Below, one piece after another: positions 7,158 to 56,721 of a stretch of DNA of 64,000 nucleotides. Made by a program: the position numbers and the translations under genes. The notes beneath the pieces are model-generated. The model ran no database searches. It was not told the origin of the DNA and saw only the letters and a program-made list of their open reading frames with translations. The stretch spans positions 32,001-96,000 of IMG/VR virus record IMGVR_UViG_3300045988_136394. One strand, 5' to 3'. This stretch comes from a virus. Positions within the stretch are counted from its first letter, which is position 1. The number at the start of each line of letters is the position of its first letter.

Positions 7158-7215
7158 AATTATTGGCCTCCTTATATACTAATTATACCGCAATGATTTT
7201 AAAATGTCAATAAAA

Positions 7216-42386: not shown

Positions 42387-42696
42387 TCTGGTAAACCTCT
42401 CTTATAATGATATCTGTAGTTATTCGGTATATTTCACGAATAGCAATCGTGTTTTCTTGGCGGTATTTCAAACTAAAAAGTTTTATGTAGTCTTTTGCTA
42501 TTTCCATGCTATCAAAATCTAACTTTTCTTGTATCTTGCCATTTATAACAATGCAGTATATCTTTTTTTACAACAGCGTTACTATCTTGCATTTTATTCC
42601 TCGTCTGCTTCTTCAACTTTCGGGTAACGCATATCAAGATATTCGCAGTCTATATTGCCCCCTTTATTTTTTTATTTTTCCTTACCTCTTGTCTAT

Positions 42697-42725
42697 ATTA
42701 TAGCCCCCCTTTGTCTTGTTGTCAA
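42697..42725 (-). promoter_or_regulatory. Consensus sigma-70 promoter on minus strand: TTGACA-17-TATAAT (copy A)
   Basis: Plus tgtcaa 42720-42725, attata 42697-42702, exact 17-nt spacer; duplicated with flanks at 56693..56721. Confidence 0.65.
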
Positions 42726-52075: not shown

Positions 52076-52450
52076 CTACCCCTCTGTTAATACTGTTTCA
52101 ATATATTTCAGCAAAAATCTGTTTAATACGGTTTGTCCGAACTCTGCCCCTTCCGGAATATTCGACCGCACATAAAACAATGTGTTTGTATCGCCGATAT
52201 TCGCGAATTCTAACTTTTGACCCCACGTGTTCCCGTCTTTAGATAACTGTAACCATTCAGGGTTGCTGCCGATAACAGAAAGCGAAACGTTATAAACATT
52301 AGTCGTTAACGCCGCCCGCAGCGCATAGGCTACAATGTGTCCAAGCTCCCCTTTTTTATCTGTGTACTTCAAGATATCGCTTGTAGTGATTAGTGTTCCG
52401 TCTGTTCCGCCGGATGTAACACTGCCGTTATAAATGCTTAATTGCGCCAT
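52076..52450 (-). CDS. Hypothetical protein, YxGG family (copy 1)
   Basis: N-terminus SIYNGSVTSGGTDGTLITTS; RBS AAAGGGGG. Confidence 0.45.
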   Translation of the reverse strand: MAQLSIYNGSVTSGGTDGTLITTSDILKYTDKKGELGHIVAYALRAALTTNVYNVSLSVIGSNPEWLQLSKDGNTWGQKLEFANIGDTNTLFYVRSNIPEGAEFGQTVLNRFLLKYIETVLTEG

Positions 52451-52497
52451 AAATAAGCCCCCTTTTATTTTTTATTTAACTATGTTATAATTTTAGC

Positions 52498-52577
52498 GTA
52501 GCATAGTCGTAAGCCCTTATATTTTTTCATTCAACGAACCTCTGCAAAATTGGCAATCGGAAACGGTTGCTTTTTTT
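52498..52577 (+). ncRNA. Candidate sRNA unit 1 (extended -10 promoter tgtTATAAT at 52483-52491; terminator GCAATCG-gaaa-CGGTTGC + T7)
   Basis: Promoter and terminator seen in sequence on plus strand; no ORF. Confidence 0.3.
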
Positions 52578-52601
52578 GCGCCCTGTTGATATAATTTAGA
52601 C

Positions 52602-52684
52602 ATTCACAGTCAGCGTTGATTGTTGGTAACTAAAAAGGGTCACAGAAGCGCAAATGCAACGCACATTTGCGTTTTTCTGTTTTA
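52602..52684 (+). ncRNA. Candidate sRNA unit 2 (promoter TTGCTT-17-TATAAT at 52567-52595 with TGn; terminator GCGCAAATG-loop-CATTTGCG + T-run)
   Basis: Canonical spacing; strong 8-bp hairpin. Confidence 0.35.
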
Positions 52685-52744
52685 TATGATAAAATAAATA
52701 CGGTACATATCAGTTTATCTCCCCAACGATAGGCTGATATAGTA

Positions 52745-52766
52745 AAAAGCCCTGCGGGGCTTTTTA
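52745..52766. terminator. Bidirectional terminator AAAAAGCCC-tgcg-GGGCTTTTT
   Basis: Perfect 6-bp GC stem with A5/T5 flanks. Confidence 0.55.
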
Positions 52767-52807
52767 TTTTTGTTTACATTATACCACATGTGCGTTATAA
52801 TAAATAT

Positions 52808-52908
52808 GGTACAAAATTAAACCGCCTTTTTATCATGTGACGCAAAACAAGTTAAAAAGCAGCAGACAAAAGCAAAGTTAACGCTTTGCTTTTTCTGTTT
52901 TTATGCTA
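52808..52908 (+). ncRNA. Candidate sRNA unit 3 (promoter TTTACA-17-TATAAT at 52773-52801; terminator AAGCAAAG-ttaacg-CTTTGCTT + T-run)
   Basis: Promoter and terminator geometry. Confidence 0.35.
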
Positions 52909-52918
52909 TAATATTTAT

Positions 52919-52979
52919 GTGGCGTCAGCTCTCCTGTTGAATTAAAATAAAAGAAGCAATCATAAGAGGTTGCTTTTTT
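52919..52979 (+). ncRNA. Candidate sRNA unit 4 (promoter TTTGCT-16-TATAAT with TGn at 52885-52912; terminator AGCAATC-ataaga-GGTTGCT + T7)
   Basis: Promoter and terminator geometry; terminator T-run doubles as -35 of next promoter. Confidence 0.3.
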
Positions 52980-53004
52980 TGCGCCTTGTTGCTATAATTA
53001 AATA

Positions 53005-53077
53005 TGCAGAAGCTGCCCCTTCTCGCAATCCTTTTTAAACAAAAAAACACCCTGCTTTTTAGCAGGGTGTTTTTTTA
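53005..53077 (+). ncRNA. Candidate sRNA unit 5 (promoter TTGCTT-17-TATAAT with TGn at 52970-52998; strong bidirectional terminator ACACCCTGCT-tttt-AGCAGGGTGT flanked by A7/T7)
   Basis: Near-exact repeat of unit 2 promoter; 3' end convergent with small peptide gene. Confidence 0.35.
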
Positions 53078-53185
53078 CTTCGTCATTTGCCCCAATCCTG
53101 CGCCGATAATTAAAAAGCAAACGCAGAAAAAAACGAAATTCATAATTAAGCCGTTTTCTTTTAGAACGGTAAAAAACTTATCCAT
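53075..53185 (-). CDS. 36-aa hydrophobic peptide (candidate type I toxin-like membrane peptide)
   Basis: RBS GAGAGGGGGG 8 nt upstream of ATG 53185; MDKFFTVLKENGLIMNFVFFCVCFLIIGAGLGQMTK; stop abuts bidirectional terminator; 5'UTR hairpin AACGCTGT/ACAGCGTT next to RBS. Confidence 0.35.
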   Translation of the reverse strand: MDKFFTVLKENGLIMNFVFFCVCFLIIGAGLGQMTK

Positions 53186-53295
53186 GATATACCCCCCTCT
53201 CTTGAACGCTGTTTAGGTTACAGCGTTTTATTTTTGCTTGTATATAGTAATTGTCCTAAAAGTATTTTGAAACGATTACAGGGCAAATATGAGCG

Positions 53296-54240
53296 TCATT
53301 CTTTTCCCGTCGACCCAAAACCGCCCTTGCGGACTTCGTTTGTATCGTCGCTGTCGCATACAGTATATTTAACAAAAATACCTTGCATAATTCGTTCGCC
53401 TTTTTTAAAACTCACGATTTCATTACTGTTATTTTGCAGGCAAATGCCTATATTGCCGTCGTTGTCGGGATTGGAAAAATAATCGGCGTCAATAATTCCT
53501 GTCCCATTCGCTAGTGTTACATGCTGTTTAATGCCTATTGAGCTGCGAATATATAGCATTAACACTTCATCATCAGGCATAAACGCTTTAACGTTTGTTG
53601 GAATAATAGCCGATATGCTGTGGGGATTTAAGCGCACATCACAGGGTAGCACGAAGTCATAACCTGCGCTTTTTGCTGTTTTCCTTTTCGGCAGCACTGT
53701 ATCGGCAGGGGCATTTTTTACGGGGTAAAATTTGCGGGAAACTTTTTCTTCTTCTAAAATTCCGAATTTTACCGGGGCTTCAAACTGATTAGAATTTTCC
53801 ATGTTATCACCTTTAAATATTTCATTTATTTTGTTTTGCAAAAGTTTGCTCGGATTATCTACGATGATTTTTTCACCATTCGTTAATCTAATAATAACTT
53901 TTATCACGTTATTTTTCAAGTTTCGCGTTTCGGTAACGTTAGTTATGCTTCTTATTTGATTAATGTTTTGAATTATTTTTAAAGCTCTGTTCTCTGCTTT
54001 TATCTGCTCTCGGTAGGATTGTTTAAATTGGTTATCAAAAAAAGATTTAAAATTATTACCGCTAGATGTTTGGTCAATAACTTTTCTGATCGATATATAG
54101 TCTTTTGGTATTCGGCATTTCGTGATTATTTCCTCGGCTGCTTTTACAGCTTCTATATCACTGCTATATTTACAACATTTTCCTATCAATAAGCAACACC
54201 GCGGTTTAAGCTTGCTGTTTTGTTTAACTATTTCGCCCAT
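53296..54240 (-). CDS. dut: dUTPase with about 146-aa N-terminal Cys-containing extension
   Basis: C-terminal half has KSAGYDF, NGTGIIDADY, RKGGFGSTGK; internal ATG 53802 with RBS AAGGTGA could give stand-alone dUTPase. Confidence 0.7.
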   Translation of the reverse strand: MGEIVKQNSKLKPRCCLLIGKCCKYSSDIEAVKAAEEIITKCRIPKDYISIRKVIDQTSSGNNFKSFFDNQFKQSYREQIKAENRALKIIQNINQIRSITNVTETRNLKNNVIKVIIRLTNGEKIIVDNPSKLLQNKINEIFKGDNMENSNQFEAPVKFGILEEEKVSRKFYPVKNAPADTVLPKRKTAKSAGYDFVLPCDVRLNPHSISAIIPTNVKAFMPDDEVLMLYIRSSIGIKQHVTLANGTGIIDADYFSNPDNDGNIGICLQNNSNEIVSFKKGERIMQGIFVKYTVCDSDDTNEVRKGGFGSTGKE

Positions 54241-54477
54241 GTAATACCCTTTTTTTCGATTTCAATATAATAAAAACTCACAACTTCAACTGCCACTCAA
54301 AATATGTTTAAATATACTCAAACACATCGAGAAATTGAAGTCCTCACGAATACTTCTTACTGCTTCATTGTGTATGTTTTGACGATTGCAGGCAATACGC
54401 TACTCACAAGTTCTTGTACACTCCACAGTCGTTAATTCCCGAAATAGCCTTCGGTACATACTTACATTTGCTTTTAA

Positions 54478-55641
54478 TCATGCAATCTTGTAAGTTTTAG
54501 CATCTTTTAAATTAAGTGCCGCATTGAAATCCCTGTCTGCAACATAGCCACATTCACATCTGTAAATTCTATCTGAAAGCTTTAAATTTTTCCTGATAGA
54601 ACCACAATGGTGACATGTCTTTGAAGATGGATAAAATCTATCTGCTACCCTTAATTCAATGCCTTTTTCATCACACTTGGCTTTAAGCCTTTTTCTAAAT
54701 TCATAAAACTTCTGAGATGCAACAGCTTTTGAAAGACACCTGTTTTTCATCATTCCTTTTACATTTAAATCTTCAATCGTTATGTAAGACGGTTTGGTTT
54801 TCACTATCTCAGCGATTGTCTTGTTAATGTAATCAGTACGGATATTATCCATTTTATGATGAAGTTTTTGTACCTTAAGCTTTTGTTTCTGTATATTTGC
54901 TCTTTGAGTGGACTCTCCTTTCTTTAAATTTTCATACTTTCGGGAAAGACTTCTCTGTTCCCGGATCAGTTGTTTTTCAAGTTTCTTTAATCCTGCCGAT
55001 TTGTTGATGTTCCTGTATGTCTTTCCATTTGAAATAATAGCAAAGTCTTTTAGCCCAAGGTCTATACCGATTCCCTCGTTTAAGTTATTGTTAATATTGA
55101 CATCGGGAATCTCTACAAGAACAGAAACATAAAATCTGCCAGCCTTAACAGACACTGTACCACTTCTGATCATATATCCATCCTTTGTTGTTGGGATATA
55201 TCCTTTTTCTTTGATACGGACCCAGCCCAGAGTTGGGATCTTAAGTCTGTGCCTTTCGCATTGACAATCCTTTGGGTTATTTCTGACGAAATACATTTTC
55301 ACATCAGATTTACCTTTCTTTTTAAATTTAGGAAAATCACTCTGATGTTTAAAAAATCTTGTAAAAGCAGCACATCCATCTTCGATAGACTTTTTTACGG
55401 CTTTTGAATACACTTCCCTGATCCATGTTTTGTCAGGATTATCTGGAATGTATTCGTTATTAAGCCATAGACTAAAGCTCTTACCAGTCATAAACTTTTC
55501 ACCATTATCATGCAGGGCTTTGTTGTGACCAAGGTAGAAGTTATAAACATATCGGCAAGTGCCTATCGTCTTACGGATTCGGGCTTTCTGTTCTTCAGTT
55601 GGGTTGATTTCCGTCTTGAAGCTCTTTAGCAATCTCTTCAT
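54478..55641 (-). CDS. tnpB: TnpB (OrfB_IS605 family, RuvC-like + zinc finger)
   Basis: GIDLGLKDF (RuvC-I), CHHCG...CECG zinc finger, RDFNAALN (RuvC-III). Confidence 0.85.
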   Translation of the reverse strand: MKRLLKSFKTEINPTEEQKARIRKTIGTCRYVYNFYLGHNKALHDNGEKFMTGKSFSLWLNNEYIPDNPDKTWIREVYSKAVKKSIEDGCAAFTRFFKHQSDFPKFKKKGKSDVKMYFVRNNPKDCQCERHRLKIPTLGWVRIKEKGYIPTTKDGYMIRSGTVSVKAGRFYVSVLVEIPDVNINNNLNEGIGIDLGLKDFAIISNGKTYRNINKSAGLKKLEKQLIREQRSLSRKYENLKKGESTQRANIQKQKLKVQKLHHKMDNIRTDYINKTIAEIVKTKPSYITIEDLNVKGMMKNRCLSKAVASQKFYEFRKRLKAKCDEKGIELRVADRFYPSSKTCHHCGSIRKNLKLSDRIYRCECGYVADRDFNAALNLKDAKTYKIA

Positions 55642-56242
55642 CCTTTTCTATTTGTTTTTTATACTTACGAAGTCCGTACAATCTACAGGAAAAAACATGA
55701 AGTATAGATACAATATCCTGTACAAGTTCTTCTTGCGGTGATAGTTCTTCATTGTTCACTATCACTATAGTTGTATTGAACTTCATACAGAATTTTTCAA
55801 ACCAGTCATATCCAAATCTGATAAATCTGTCTTTATGTGCAACTATGATGGTTTTAATTTTTTGTTCCATTACTTCATCTAACATCTGATTCCACTTTTT
55901 GCGGTTATAGTTTAAACCACTGTCATAATCTTCAATACATTGGTCTACAATCATTCCTCTGGCATTACAGAATTGACGTAAAAACGATACTTGATTCTGT
56001 AAATCATCCTTTTGATTTCTTGTAGAAACTCTTGCATAAATAACAACTTGTCGAGTATCATTCTCTGTATCTATGCCTTTGAATTGAAGATATTGGTTGT
56101 AAGTATAATAACGCCTGTCAGTTGGAGTTCGATTCGCTTTTAGCGTTCCTTCCCTGTCCCAACGCTGTAATGTTTTCACAGAGACACCTAATAATTCAGC
56201 AAAATCTTTTGGTTTATAATTAGTGATATTCGATGTGTTCAT
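55595..56242 (-). CDS. tnpA: IS607-type serine recombinase transposase TnpA (N-terminal MerR-like HTH + resolvase catalytic domain)
   Basis: HTH DFAELLGVSVKTLQRWDREG; catalytic VIYARVSTRNQ; start taken at ATG 56242 (RBS GGGGGG). Confidence 0.8.
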   Translation of the reverse strand: MNTSNITNYKPKDFAELLGVSVKTLQRWDREGTLKANRTPTDRRYYTYNQYLQFKGIDTENDTRQVVIYARVSTRNQKDDLQNQVSFLRQFCNARGMIVDQCIEDYDSGLNYNRKKWNQMLDEVMEQKIKTIIVAHKDRFIRFGYDWFEKFCMKFNTTIVIVNNEELSPQEELVQDIVSILHVFSCRLYGLRKYKKQIEKDEEIAKELQDGNQPN

Positions 56243-56356
56243 AGCAATACCCCCCATGAGCACATTTTAACACATTTAATCACTAATATCAATGTTATCG
56301 ATTGCTTAAAAATTCTCCTTTGATATGTCACATAATTTTGTACGCTTTCAAGTTTT

Positions 56357-56617
56357 TCATCTGTTATACCTTCTATCTCTGATGATTAAATCCATATCTA
56401 GGCTATCCAGCAGCTTTATTAAATCGTTAATGTTGACAAAACCTCTTTTAAAACGGTCGTGCAATCCTGTTTCATTGATATTCATTTCTGCTGCAACTTC
56501 TTTTAAATACCTCTTGTCCCTGCGTACCAGCCTTCTGACCCATGTTTTAAACGCTACCGGGTCAGCTAATTTCTCGGCAGCGTTCCATTCTTTCAGTGTT
56601 GGTTTTTCAAACTTCAC
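56357..56617 (-). CDS. Small HTH-type regulator (GTG start)
   Basis: Immediately downstream of consensus promoter copy B. Confidence 0.45.
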   Translation of the reverse strand: MKFEKPTLKEWNAAEKLADPVAFKTWVRRLVRRDKRYLKEVAAEMNINETGLHDRFKRGFVNINDLIKLLDSLDMDLIIRDRRYNR

Positions 56618-56692
56618 TTTATCACCTGCCTACTTTTTAATTTTTTCATAATACTGCCCCTTTATTTTGATTTTCCCTTACCTCTTGTCTAT

Positions 56693-56721
56693 ATTATAGC
56701 CCCCCTTCGTCCTATTGTCAA
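56693..56721 (-). promoter_or_regulatory. Consensus sigma-70 promoter TTGACA-17-TATAAT (copy B), with about 60 bp of flanking sequence homologous to copy A (~120-bp cassette counting the downstream terminator)
   Basis: Plus tgtcaa 56716-56721 and attata 56693-56698; flank cctcttgtctatattatagcccccc shared with 42.68 kb. Confidence 0.65.

What the first reader, a model, noticed from the sequence alone, without database searches (positions are those of the whole stretch)
52451..53295. Tandem array of five plus-strand promoter-terminator micro-units with no ORFs, convergent with a 36-aa hydrophobic peptide gene (type I toxin-antitoxin-like sRNA locus)
An 850-bp non-coding stretch sits on the otherwise empty plus strand and holds five successive sigma-70-type promoters. 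Four have an extended TGnTATAAT -10; the promoters at 52567-52595 and 52970-52998 are TTGCTT-17 nt-TATAAT, and the two others carrying TGn have shorter or weaker -35 spacing. Each promoter is followed 60-100 nt later by a hairpin plus U-tract terminator. In three cases the terminator's GGTTGCTTTTTTT tail also provides the -35 element of the next promoter. Two units carry a near-identical 32-bp promoter repeat.
The last unit ends in a strong bidirectional terminator at 53042-53077. That terminator abuts the stop codon of a minus-strand 36-aa peptide with a strong RBS and a single TM helix (MDKFFTVLKENGLIMNFVFFCVCFLIIGAGLGQMTK), and the peptide's 5'UTR has a hairpin next to the RBS. Convergent sRNA/toxin-mRNA pairs that overlap at their 3' ends are the layout of Bacillus prophage type I TA systems (txpA/RatA, bsrG/SR4). 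A five-unit tandem sRNA array is not something I recognise from described phage loci.
Basis: partly seen in the sequence, partly recalled or inferred. Interest (0 to 1): 0.75.

Follow-up and report, generated by a model that had tools for sequence, protein, structure and literature searches.

The report
Tandem small-RNA gene array in phage
A human-gut phage carries, on the strand opposite to all its protein genes, a row of six tiny self-contained promoter-to-terminator units. They most likely make six different 60-95-nt regulatory RNAs; clusters of this kind are known in bacteria, but I know of no described phage example.

Summary
The gap 52451-53295 has six, not five, plus-strand sigma-A-type promoter-to-terminator units with no conserved ORF. 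It ends at a bidirectional terminator shared with a conserved minus-strand 36-aa membrane-peptide gene.

About 40 related human-gut phage contigs keep the array. The -10 elements are almost invariant while spacers vary. Units u2 and u4 vary less than codon positions 1+2 of the neighbouring genes. G-U pairs and folding energy favour the plus strand. A 71%-identity relative keeps four units, with hairpins rebuilt from different sequence.

Unit number varies (2, 4, 6 or 7). Units recombine at a shared terminator/promoter junction.

The array lies in a self-transcribed accessory segment that interrupts the tail/baseplate operon; that operon is contiguous in distant relatives.

Best reading: a cluster of autonomous small-RNA genes, probably base-pairing regulators that act through exposed C/U-rich or conserved loops. 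Targets are unknown.

The type I toxin-antitoxin reading is weak:
- the peptide has no toxin family;
- it is probably the last gene of an operon;
- overlap with u6 is limited to the terminator;
- par-like complementarity is not significant.

No expression data exist.

The parts
52483..52578 (+). Unit u1: extended -10 TGTTATAAT (52483-91), predicted start about 52498, terminator hairpin 52552-71 plus T-run. About 81-nt RNA. Contains AAGCCCUUAUAUUUUUU and ACCUCU.
   Evidence: The -10 is invariant in 20+17 relatives. Present in every lineage, including L042 and L044.
52567..52684 (+). Unit u2: TTGCTT-17-TGATATAAT (52567-95), start about 52602, terminator 52644-76. About 83-nt RNA. Conserved single-stranded motifs AUUCACA and GGGUCA.
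   Evidence: Diversity: body 0.010, terminator 0.002, against 0.07-0.13 at codon position 3. The L042 homologue keeps the motifs with both hairpins replaced.
52667..52774 (+). Unit u3: TTGCGT-17-TGATAAAAT (52667-95), start about 52702, 5' hairpin 52707-40 with loop UCUCCCCAAC, bidirectional terminator 52741-68. About 73-nt RNA.
   Evidence: z -6.2. Three stem variants all keep the hairpin and an invariant C-rich loop. Absent in L042 and L044.
52773..52901 (+). Unit u4: TTTACA-17-TATAAT (52773-801), start about 52808, terminator 52868-93. About 93-nt RNA. Conserved 5' CAAAAUUAAACCGCCUUU and apical loop GUGACGCAAA.
   Evidence: Diversity: body 0.010, terminator 0.003. 3 of 53 and 1 of 40 sites vary in 17 further contigs. 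Conserved in L042 with an identical terminator and a rebuilt middle stem.
52904..52981 (+). Unit u5: TGCTATAAT (52904-12), start about 52919, hairpin 52925-40 with loop CUCUCC, terminator 52948-81. About 63-nt RNA. This is the most variable unit.
   Evidence: The body is replaced or hybrid in L001, L007 and L012. An extra unit follows it in L009 and L011. Diversity 0.147.
52970..53083 (+). Unit u6: TTGCTT-17-TGCTATAAT (52970-98), start about 53004, 5' hairpin 53005-27 with C-rich loop GCCCCU, 16-bp bidirectional terminator 53041-76. About 79-nt RNA.
   Evidence: z -6.8. Present in all lineages. In L042 the hairpin is rebuilt but keeps CCCC in the loop. The terminator loop flips tttt/aaaa among relatives. 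The terminator is deleted in L048.
52546..52596 (+). Terminator/promoter junction repeat, copy 1 (u1/u2). Copy 2 is at 52949-52999 (u5/u6). This is the recombination module of the array.
   Evidence: 51 nt, 82% identity; exact 18-mer twice, 0.11 expected. L044 joins u1 directly to u6 at this junction.
52949..52999 (+). Terminator/promoter junction repeat, copy 2 (u5/u6).
52778..52786 (-). Minus-strand extended -10 (TGGTATAAT), back-to-back with the u4 promoter. Possible promoter for the downstream tail genes; its roughly 320-nt leader would be antisense to u1-u3.
   Evidence: 0 of 9 sites vary, against 4 of 9 in the rest of the u4 spacer. Present as TGATATAAT in L042. Function inferred.
53075..53185 (-). 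36-aa ORF MDKFFTVLKENGLIMNFVFFCVCFLIIGAGLGQMTK (one predicted TM helix). Its stop codon lies inside the tail of the u6 terminator.
   Evidence: The frame is kept in all relatives, including an in-frame 3-nt indel and L042. Diversity: position 3 0.067 against positions 1+2 0.030. No family.
53186..53235 (-). 5' leader of the peptide gene: SD GAGAGGGGGG (53192-53201) and hairpin 53204-28. Read on the plus strand, this is a terminator-like hairpin followed by a T-run.
   Evidence: Diversity 0.008. The hairpin is kept in L042 with a different stem and a 7-T run.

Best explanation
The gap holds six autonomous transcription units. Each has a host sigma-A-type promoter (mostly extended -10) followed 60-95 nt later by an intrinsic terminator. 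All six lie on the strand opposite to every phage protein gene. Each most likely makes one small structured non-coding RNA: a 5' hairpin, a single-stranded linker and a terminator hairpin.

The units form an accessory, 'moron'-like small-RNA cluster. The cluster sits inside a self-transcribed segment (own promoter, dUTPase-fusion gene, 36-aa peptide gene, terminators) that interrupts the tail/baseplate operon of a phage of gut Lachnospiraceae.

The array evolves like cassettes. The terminator of one unit overlaps the -35 of the next. Recombination at this shared junction deletes, duplicates or swaps units, giving 2, 4, 6 or 7 units in relatives.

Most likely mode of action (inferred, not shown): the RNAs are base-pairing regulators. 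Exposed loops or linkers would pair with ribosome-binding regions of host or phage mRNAs and block translation. The candidate contact sites are:
- u1: CCUCU;
- u3: CUCCCC;
- u5: CUCUCC;
- u6: GCCCCU;
- u2 and u4: their own strongly conserved motifs.

Shown: the sequence features, their conservation, the strand bias of structure and the modular evolution. Inferred: transcription, RNA function and targets.
For: - Promoter and terminator density is far above chance and limited to the plus strand.
- Conservation pattern in 20 relatives: -10 elements have diversity 0-0.06 and the u4 -35 has 0. u2 and u4 bodies and terminators have 0.002-0.010. Codon position 3 has 0.07-0.13 and positions 1+2 have 0.02. 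The pattern repeats in 17 further metagenome contigs.
- The plus strand is the structured one: -188 against -161 kcal/mol, and 29 against 12 G-U pairs.
- The divergent relative L042 (71% aa identity in the flanking gene) keeps u1, u2, u4, u6, the peptide gene and its leader hairpin. Promoters and architecture are the same; stems are rebuilt from different sequence; loop and linker motifs are kept.
- No conserved ORF lies in any unit.
- Unit gain, loss and swaps occur at the junction repeat.
- In the 55-58% relatives L039 and L041 the flanking gene sits inside a contiguous tail operon with no gap. In the window the hub and spike genes lie upstream of the inserted segment.
- u3 and u5 pair with the window's translation-initiation regions better than shuffled versions do.
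- CU-rich/UCCC loops that bind Shine-Dalgarno sequences are an established mode for low-GC Gram-positive sRNAs (PMC4132741).
Against: - There are no expression data of any kind.
- No Rfam family matches.
- No extended complementarity to any other part of the 64-kb window.
- The best predicted pairings do not beat shuffled controls in energy.
- The u1 match to the neighbouring gene's ribosome-binding site is significant only in the window lineage (p 0.0025, against 0.54 and 0.17).
- The host genome could not be searched for targets.
- u2-u5 are dispensable in one lineage (L044).
- A conserved minus-strand -10 inside the array means that part of the conservation may serve minus-strand transcription.
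- The family is confined to one phage lineage, so covariation rests on few independent lineages.
Confidence: 0.55

Rival explanations
1. Cis-acting antisense barrier or switch for the downstream tail genes. The tail/baseplate operon is interrupted here, so the genes from 52450 leftwards must be expressed in one of two ways: by read-through across the bidirectional terminators, or from the minus-strand extended -10 at 52786-78. In this reading, six promoters firing head-on, and their RNAs (perfectly complementary to any such leader), block or time tail-gene expression. They would do so by transcriptional interference, duplex-triggered cleavage or masking of the ribosome-binding site. The RNAs would then matter mainly in cis.
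For: - The array begins about 20 nt from the SD of the first downstream gene.
- No consensus minus-strand promoter serves 52450-42903, although the phage uses perfect TTGACA-17-TATAAT promoters elsewhere.
- The minus-strand TGGTATAAT is invariant while the adjacent spacer varies, and it is kept in L042.
- Three terminators are bidirectional.
- In the window lineage u1 carries a diverged copy of the neighbouring gene's RBS region (D7, p 0.0025).
- The operon is contiguous in distant relatives.
Against: - A purely cis role does not explain why u2 and u4 loop and linker sequences are kept more strictly than protein-coding positions.
- It does not explain why structure favours the plus strand.
- u4-u6 lie upstream of the putative minus-strand promoter.
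- L044 has neither that promoter nor u2-u5.
- The minus-strand promoter fires straight into the u3 bidirectional terminator.
- The u1-RBS complementarity is not kept in L042 or L044.
Confidence: 0.25
2. Type I toxin-antitoxin-like pair. u6 is the antitoxin RNA and the 36-aa membrane peptide is the toxin. They are transcribed convergently into a shared bidirectional terminator, as in par/Fst loci. The other units are unrelated neighbours or spare antitoxins.
For: - u6 and the peptide gene are adjacent and convergent in every lineage, including L042 and L044.
- They share a bidirectional terminator.
- The ORF is small, hydrophobic and conserved.
- Its SD is predicted to be sequestered, and a conserved hairpin abuts it.
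- That hairpin is a plus-strand terminator, so read-through of u6 would give a full antisense RNA. This is constitutive in L048, where the u6 terminator is missing.
- 9 nt of u6 can pair with the SD, ranking 2nd of 114 initiation regions.
Against: - u6-RBS pairing is not better than shuffled controls in three lineages.
- An SD change in L010 is not compensated in u6.
- The peptide has no toxin family and no relatives outside this phage lineage.
- It lacks the Fst signature.
- No convincing promoter of its own was found. A 48-nt deletion upstream of it is tolerated in L045, and it follows the dUTPase gene in one operon.
- The idea explains only one of six units.
Confidence: 0.12
3. A DNA-level element, such as a transcription-activated replication origin, a packaging site or an RNA-polymerase sink. 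On this view the hairpins and promoters matter as DNA, and the short transcripts are by-products or primers.
For: - The region is non-coding, AT-rich and hairpin-rich, and lies between gene modules.
- Transcription-dependent phage origins exist (my own knowledge, not checked here).
Against: - No change in GC skew.
- No iterons or tandem repeats.
- G-U pairs and energy favour one RNA strand.
- Unit number varies from 2 to 7.
- The element is absent from distant relatives that have the same flanking gene.
Confidence: 0.04

Closest known systems
LhrC1-5 multicopy sRNAs of Listeria monocytogenes, and the C-rich/UCCC class of low-GC Gram-positive sRNAs (RNAIII, RsaE, SprD, FsrA)
   Same: - Several short sRNA genes, each with its own promoter and intrinsic terminator. 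My recollection, not checked here, is that some lhrC copies lie side by side in one intergenic region.
- Architecture of hairpin, linker and terminator.
- CU-rich motifs exposed in loops or linkers that bind Shine-Dalgarno regions (PMC4132741). The u3 loop CUCCCC contains the LhrC CUCCC/UCCC motif.
   Different: - The LhrC copies are near-identical paralogues under one regulator. Here the six bodies are different sequences, with only promoters, terminators and short 5' ends shared.
- This locus is in a phage, not a chromosome.
- Terminators overlap the next promoter.
- Binding, targets and expression are untested.
- u2 and u4 do not carry the motif.
Phage- or island-borne trans-acting sRNAs: S. 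aureus Spr RNAs such as SprD, and E. coli prophage sRNAs (Pas, DicF, and others)
   Same: - Small regulatory RNAs carried as accessory cargo of phages.
- Each is an autonomous promoter-terminator unit.
- They evolve by horizontal transfer and copy-number change (bioRxiv 10.64898/2026.05.13.724894; SprD and my own knowledge).
   Different: - The known cases are single genes or pairs, not a head-to-tail array of 4-7 different units with overlapping control elements.
- They come from other hosts.
- No sequence or Rfam similarity.
par/Fst type I toxin-antitoxin loci (pAD1 RNA I / RNA II)
   Same: - Convergent transcription of a short RNA and a small hydrophobic-peptide mRNA into one bidirectional intrinsic terminator.
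- A stem-loop next to the SD in the peptide mRNA (PMC7472228).
   Different: - No significant DRa/DRb-type second complementarity.
- The peptide lacks the Fst/Ldr signature and has no family.
- No clear toxin promoter; the gene ends an operon.
- Five further units have no toxin partner.
Phage antisense or immunity RNAs: lambda OOP, P22 Sar, P1/P7 C4, P4 CI
   Same: Short promoter-terminator RNAs encoded opposite to, or upstream of, phage operons. They control neighbouring phage genes by pairing, in some cases through duplicated target-like sequences (my own knowledge, not checked here).
   Different: - Those are single RNAs with a defined, extended complementary target in the phage.
- Here no conserved extended target was found in 64 kb, and there are six units.
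Phage 'morons': autonomous promoter-gene-terminator insertions between phage genes
   Same: - Each unit, and the whole 56.77-52.45-kb segment, has its own host-type promoter and terminator.
- The segment interrupts an otherwise contiguous operon.
   Different: - Classical morons encode proteins. These units encode no ORF and are stacked in tandem on the opposite strand.

Membership tests
par/Fst-type type I toxin-antitoxin | Convergent toxin-mRNA and antitoxin-RNA promoters | tested here: inconclusive
   The u6 promoter is clear and invariant. No convincing promoter was found for the peptide gene. The candidate region is deleted in L045. The gene follows the dUTPase gene downstream of a consensus promoter at 56721-56693.
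par/Fst-type type I toxin-antitoxin | Shared bidirectional intrinsic terminator giving complementary 3' stem-loops | tested here: met
   16-bp perfect palindrome at 53041-76 with A- and T-runs. The stop codon lies in its tail. Kept in L042 and L044 with a different stem sequence. Missing in L048.
par/Fst-type type I toxin-antitoxin | Direct repeats (DRa/DRb) that make the antitoxin complementary to the toxin's SD and start codon | tested here: not met
   Duplex energy of u6 against the peptide initiation region versus 400 dinucleotide shuffles: p 0.20 (window), 0.89 (L042), 0.24 (L044). Only 9 nt, CCCCUUCUC to GAGAGGGGG, in the window.
par/Fst-type type I toxin-antitoxin | Fst/Ldr toxin signature: TM helix, conserved Trp, charged C-terminal tail, PXXXG | tested here: not met
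   The peptide has a TM stretch but no Trp, ends in QMTK, and has no PXXXG (criteria from PMC7472228). No NCBIfam or Pfam hit. Only close relatives among 1.84e9 proteins.
par/Fst-type type I toxin-antitoxin | Peptide is toxic when over-expressed and is rescued by the RNA | not testable with these tools
   Needs an inducible expression experiment.
Bacillus prophage type I TA (txpA/RatA, bsrG/SR4) | Antitoxin overlaps roughly 75-120 nt of the 3' part of the toxin mRNA | tested here: not met
   The predicted u6 RNA ends at 53077-83 and the peptide stop codon is at 53075-77, so the overlap is the terminator only, about 36-40 nt. The overlap lengths for the Bacillus systems are from my own knowledge.
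Trans-acting C-rich (UCCC/CU-rich) sRNAs of low-GC Gram-positive bacteria | Independent gene with its own promoter and intrinsic terminator, and no ORF | tested here: met
   (sequence level only; transcription not shown).
Trans-acting C-rich (UCCC/CU-rich) sRNAs of low-GC Gram-positive bacteria | C-rich motif exposed in a loop or linker | tested here: met
   The u3 loop CUCCCC, u5 loop CUCUCC and u6 loop GCCCCU are unpaired in the MFE and centroid folds. The u3 loop is invariant across stem variants. The u6 loop keeps CCCC in L042. u2 and u4 lack the motif.
Trans-acting C-rich (UCCC/CU-rich) sRNAs of low-GC Gram-positive bacteria | Pairs with the SD region of defined target mRNAs and represses translation | tested here: inconclusive
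   u3 and u5 pair with the window's initiation regions better than shuffles do (mean -13.4 against -12.1 +/- 0.7, and -12.1 against -10.3 +/- 0.5). No single target stands out. The host genome could not be searched.
Any Rfam RNA family | Score at or above the family's gathering threshold | tested here: not met
   Only RAGATH-18 at 54357-54429 passes. All hits inside the array are terminator-driven and below threshold.
Repeat-spacer guide arrays (CRISPR, TIGR) or type III antitoxin repeat arrays (ToxI-like) | Regular direct repeats of fixed period that separate or form the units | tested here: not met
   TRF finds no array. The repeat finder gives only the 51-nt junction pair and short matches. 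Unit lengths differ and each unit has its own promoter.
Phage moron (autonomous accessory transcription unit) | Own promoter and terminator, inserted between genes that are adjacent in related phages | tested here: met
   The operon is contiguous in L039 and L041. In the window the hub and spike genes are followed by terminator 56767-46, a consensus promoter, the accessory genes and the array, and then the homologous gene at 52450.

The most novel reading that the evidence does not exclude
The array is a cassette system for regulatory RNAs. Each unit is a standard 'promoter - variable seed-bearing body - terminator' module. The terminator of one unit doubles as the -35 of the next. Recombination at this shared junction lets the phage gain, lose and swap small RNAs. 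The result would be a rapidly reshuffled repertoire of trans-acting RNAs used for host take-over or counter-defence in gut Lachnospiraceae. That would make it a promoter-driven analogue of a guide-RNA array, with no associated effector protein.
Probability: 0.2. Interest if true: 0.8.

Novelty: new variant of a known kind. Interest (0 to 1): 0.55.

Why it matters
Phage-encoded regulatory RNAs are documented mostly as single genes in E. coli, Salmonella and Staphylococcus prophages. Almost nothing is known about them in phages of the dominant gut Firmicutes.

This family is common in human-gut metagenomes: about 40 contigs were retrieved here, and one protein cluster has 2461 member sequences. 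It devotes about 600 bp to six differently sequenced, strongly conserved small transcription units.

If they are expressed, this would be:
- a compact natural example of stacked, insulated sRNA genes;
- a handle on how a gut phage reprogrammes its host, or times its own tail genes, through RNA;
- a case where sRNA repertoires evolve by cassette-like recombination.

The terminator/-35 overlap is also a tidy design for synthetic biology.

If they turn out to be only a cis-acting barrier, the locus still shows how an accessory insertion inside a tail operon is insulated.

Tried and rejected
- INPHARED phage DNA search of the region: no match.
- Rfam at permissive E-values: only sub-threshold hits driven by terminators.
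- Exact junction 18-mer in IMG/VR: one unrelated high-GC phage coding region, a chance hit.
- u4 motif pattern in IMG/VR: the family itself plus six chance hits inside coding regions of unrelated phages.
- u4 terminator in 185,579 species genomes: none, so no prophage copy or host homologue was found.
- Peptide search in IMG/VR and in 1.84e9 representative proteins: only this lineage.
- Complementarity of the unit bodies to the rest of the window: nothing beyond 13 nt.
- A first whole-window duplex scan timed out.
- Pairing tests of u1 and u6 against the neighbouring ribosome-binding sites: not conserved or not significant.
- A phage ProQ-like gene seen faintly in relative L048 is absent from the window.
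- Micro-ORFs are not conserved: the 70-aa plus-strand ORF, MQRTFAFFCFI in u2, and 4-7-aa ORFs at the starts of u4 and u5.
- L037, a 51% dUTPase relative, is a different phage and not comparable.
- Origin of replication: no skew change or iterons.
- PADLOC: no defence family in the neighbouring proteins.
- I first took the 86-aa protein at 56360-56617 for an HTH regulator; Pfam gives no hit, so I do not call it that.
Full report
**What is there**

The window is phage-like. Almost every ORF of at least 100 aa that looks like a gene lies on the minus strand. The stretch 52451-53295 lies between a minus-strand 124-aa gene with no family (52076-52450) and a minus-strand dUTPase-fusion gene (53296-54240).

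Reading the sequence gives six plus-strand promoter-to-terminator units, not five.

| Unit | Promoter | Terminator |
|---|---|---|
| u1 | TGtTATAAT 52483-91 | 52552-71 |
| u2 | TTGCTT-17-TGaTATAAT 52567-95 | 52644-76 |
| u3 | TTGCGT-17-TGaTAAAAT 52667-95 | 52741-68 |
| u4 | TTTACA-17-TATAAT 52773-801 | 52868-93 |
| u5 | TGcTATAAT 52904-12 | 52948-81 |
| u6 | TTGCTT-17-TGcTATAAT 52970-98 | 53041-76 |

In four junctions the 3' arm and T-run of one terminator supply the TTG of the next -35. The exact string GGTTGCTTTTTTT occurs twice, not three times. It is part of a 51-nt repeat at 82% identity.

**Is it more than chance?**

- TGNTATAAT occurs 11 times in 128 kb of strand sequence. Five of those are in this 515 bp, four on the plus strand.
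- Every terminator-like site the tool reports in 51-55 kb is plus-strand and inside 52552-53228: six sites, against 2.5 +/- 1.6 in shuffles.
- My own scan finds few plus-strand terminators elsewhere in the window.
- The predicted RNAs (63-93 nt) each fold as 5' hairpin, linker and terminator, with z-scores from -1.7 to -6.8.

**Relatives**

No deposited phage matches. IMG/VR, Logan/ENA and JGI metagenomes hold about 40 contigs, where labelled from human gut, at 91-97% nucleotide identity, typically about 50 kb long.

In 20 aligned sequences the diversity per site was as follows:

| Feature | Diversity |
|---|---|
| Codon position 3 of the flanking genes | 0.07-0.13 |
| Codon positions 1+2 | about 0.02 |
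| -10 elements | 0-0.06 |
| u4 -35 | 0 |
| u2 body / terminator | 0.010 / 0.002 |
| u4 body / terminator | 0.010 / 0.003 |
| u1, u3, u6 bodies | about 0.047 |
| u5 body | 0.147 |

Seventeen further contigs give the same picture. Promoter hexamers are kept while spacers vary, and two bodies are kept more strictly than protein-coding positions. That is the signature of functional promoters and functional RNA sequence.

The plus strand is the structured one: -188 against -161 kcal/mol over the array, and 29 against 12 G-U pairs.

**A divergent relative**

L042 has 71% amino-acid identity in the 124-aa protein. It has the same gap between a dUTPase gene and the homologous gene. The gap holds four units (u1, u2, u4, u6 homologues), the peptide gene and its leader hairpin.

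- Promoters are again TGnTATAAT-like or TTTACA-17-TATAAT.
- All four RNAs fold in the same architecture.
- In u2 both hairpins are different sequences, but the single-stranded AUUCACA and GGGUCA are kept.
- In u4 the 5' CAAAAUUAA-CCNCCUUU, the apical GUGACGCAAA and the whole terminator are kept, while the middle stem is rebuilt.
- In u6 a differently built hairpin still displays CCCC.
- Three stem variants of u3 keep the hairpin and an invariant UCUCCCCAAC loop.

These are few lineages, so covariation is supportive rather than statistically strong.

**Modular evolution**

- L044 (81% relative) has only u1 fused to u6 at the shared junction.
- L009 and L011 have a seventh unit, with its own TGTTATAAT and a u1-type terminator.
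- L001, L007 and L012 carry replaced or hybrid u5 bodies.
- L048 lacks the u6 terminator palindrome.
- The loop of that palindrome flips tttt/aaaa among relatives.
- L004 has a TnpB-only insertion element exactly at the u5 start.

The six-unit form is the common one.

**Context**

In 55-58% relatives (L039, L041) the homologue of the 124-aa gene sits inside a contiguous tail operon: Dit-like, hub gp41, Apex spike, and so on through sheath initiator and baseplate J. There is no gap.

In the window the Dit, hub and spike genes lie at 58.7-61.2 kb. Reading leftwards from them:

1. a minus-strand terminator (56767-46);
2. a perfect TTGACA-17-TATAAT promoter (56721-56693);
3. an 86-aa gene;
4. an IS607-type element, whose TnpB is 99% identical to a copy in Coprococcus comes;
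5. the dUTPase gene;
6. the 36-aa ORF;
7. the bidirectional terminator;
8. the array;
9. the tail operon, which resumes only here.

The array therefore belongs to a self-transcribed accessory ('moron'-like) insertion in a phage whose host is probably a Lachnospiraceae. The host assignment is an inference from the shared insertion element and from portal similarity to Firmicutes phages.

**How it most likely works**

No unit has a conserved ORF, and Rfam has no match. The RNAs look like typical low-GC Gram-positive base-pairing sRNAs. u3, u5 and u6 expose C-rich loops (CUCCCC, CUCUCC, GCCCCU) and u1 carries CCUCU. Motifs of this kind bind Shine-Dalgarno regions in LhrC, RNAIII, RsaE and SprD (PMC4132741). 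u3 and u5 pair with the window's initiation regions better than shuffles do.

I therefore favour autonomous trans-acting sRNA genes, with confidence 0.55 for the package; I would put the existence of the RNAs somewhat higher (my judgement).

Targets remain unknown:
- No extended complementarity exists in the window.
- No single predicted target beats shuffled controls.
- The host genome could not be searched.

**Rivals**

(a) A cis-acting antisense barrier or switch for the resumed tail genes.
- For: a minus-strand TGGTATAAT at 52786-78 is invariant although the neighbouring u4 spacer varies, and it is kept in L042. Its leader would be antisense to u1-u3. In the window lineage u1 also carries a diverged copy of the neighbouring RBS region (p 0.0025).
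- Against: that match is not kept in L042 or L044. A cis role does not explain the strict conservation of the u2 and u4 loops or the plus-strand structural bias.

- For: the shared bidirectional terminator and the small conserved membrane ORF fit par/Fst.
- Against: the defining second complementarity is not significant in three lineages. The peptide has no family or distant relatives and lacks the Fst signature. It ends an operon. Five units are left unexplained.
- One point in its favour remains. The conserved hairpin at 53204-28 is a terminator on the plus strand, so u6 read-through would make a full antisense RNA. This would be constitutive in L048.

(c) A DNA-level element such as an origin. 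There is no skew change, no iterons and no tandem repeats.

**Novelty and limits**

Phage-borne sRNAs, multicopy sRNA clusters and morons are all known. A head-to-tail array of four to seven different sRNA units, with overlapping terminator/promoter junctions and cassette-like turnover, in a gut Firmicutes phage, is something I could not find described.

I rate it a new variant of a known kind, with moderate interest.

Everything rests on sequence analysis of one phage lineage. Transcription, targets and peptide toxicity are untested.

Noticed in passing
window 54357-54429 (-), next to 54478-55641 (-) and 55595-56263 (-): A RAGATH-18 RNA (69.8 bits, above gathering) lies just 3' of a TnpB gene that is paired with a serine-recombinase/MerR-type TnpA. 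This is an IS607-type element with its guide-RNA scaffold, inserted between the 86-aa gene and the dUTPase gene. Relatives lack it. The TnpB is 99% identical to a copy in Coprococcus comes MSK.16.63.
   Followed up: partly
L004 / L036 (IMGVR_UViG_3300045988_146503), equivalent to window about 52919: A 1475-bp TnpB-only element (400-aa ORF) is inserted exactly at the predicted u5 transcription start. It lies in the plus orientation, so it sits under the u5 promoter.
   Followed up: partly
window 42680-42709 and 56676-56705; promoters 42725-42697 (-) and 56721-56693 (-): An identical 30-nt element (about 70 nt similar overall) carries perfect TTGACA-17-TATAAT minus-strand promoters at two places 14 kb apart, bracketing the accessory segment plus the baseplate/fibre module. 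Two more perfect promoters lie at 7210 and 12090.
   Followed up: partly
window 42895-42750 (-): Another ORF-less promoter-to-terminator unit, this one on the minus strand: TGTTATAAT at 42895-87, about 115 nt, then the bidirectional terminator 42772-57. It lies just after the last tail-fibre-module gene. The fold has z -4.7. It may be a further sRNA or a 3'UTR element.
   Followed up: partly
window 52778-52786 (-): A minus-strand extended -10 (TGGTATAAT) overlaps the u4 -35. It is invariant in relatives and present in L042. It fires directly into the bidirectional u3 terminator, so its role is unexplained.
   Followed up: partly
window about 42000: G+C content steps from about 0.30-0.35 (1-42 kb) to about 0.37-0.45 (42-64 kb). 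Head and tail genes also seem to occur in both parts, so the genome is mosaic or the window spans modules of different origin.
   Followed up: no
window 53296-54240 (-); L042 1936-3325: The dUTPase carries a roughly 170-aa N-terminal extension with no family. In L042 the dUTPase gene is split by an HNH endonuclease gene.
   Followed up: no
window 53057-53060; L048 and L045 equivalents: The loop of the u6 terminator palindrome is inverted (tttt/aaaa) among close relatives. L048 has the whole palindrome deleted. L045 lacks 48 nt (about 53229-53276) upstream of the peptide gene.
   Followed up: partly
L048 480-908: A 142-aa gene upstream of the dUTPase gene in one relative has a faint Phage_ProQ_C_like hit, hinting at an RNA chaperone. 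It is absent from the window.
   Followed up: yes
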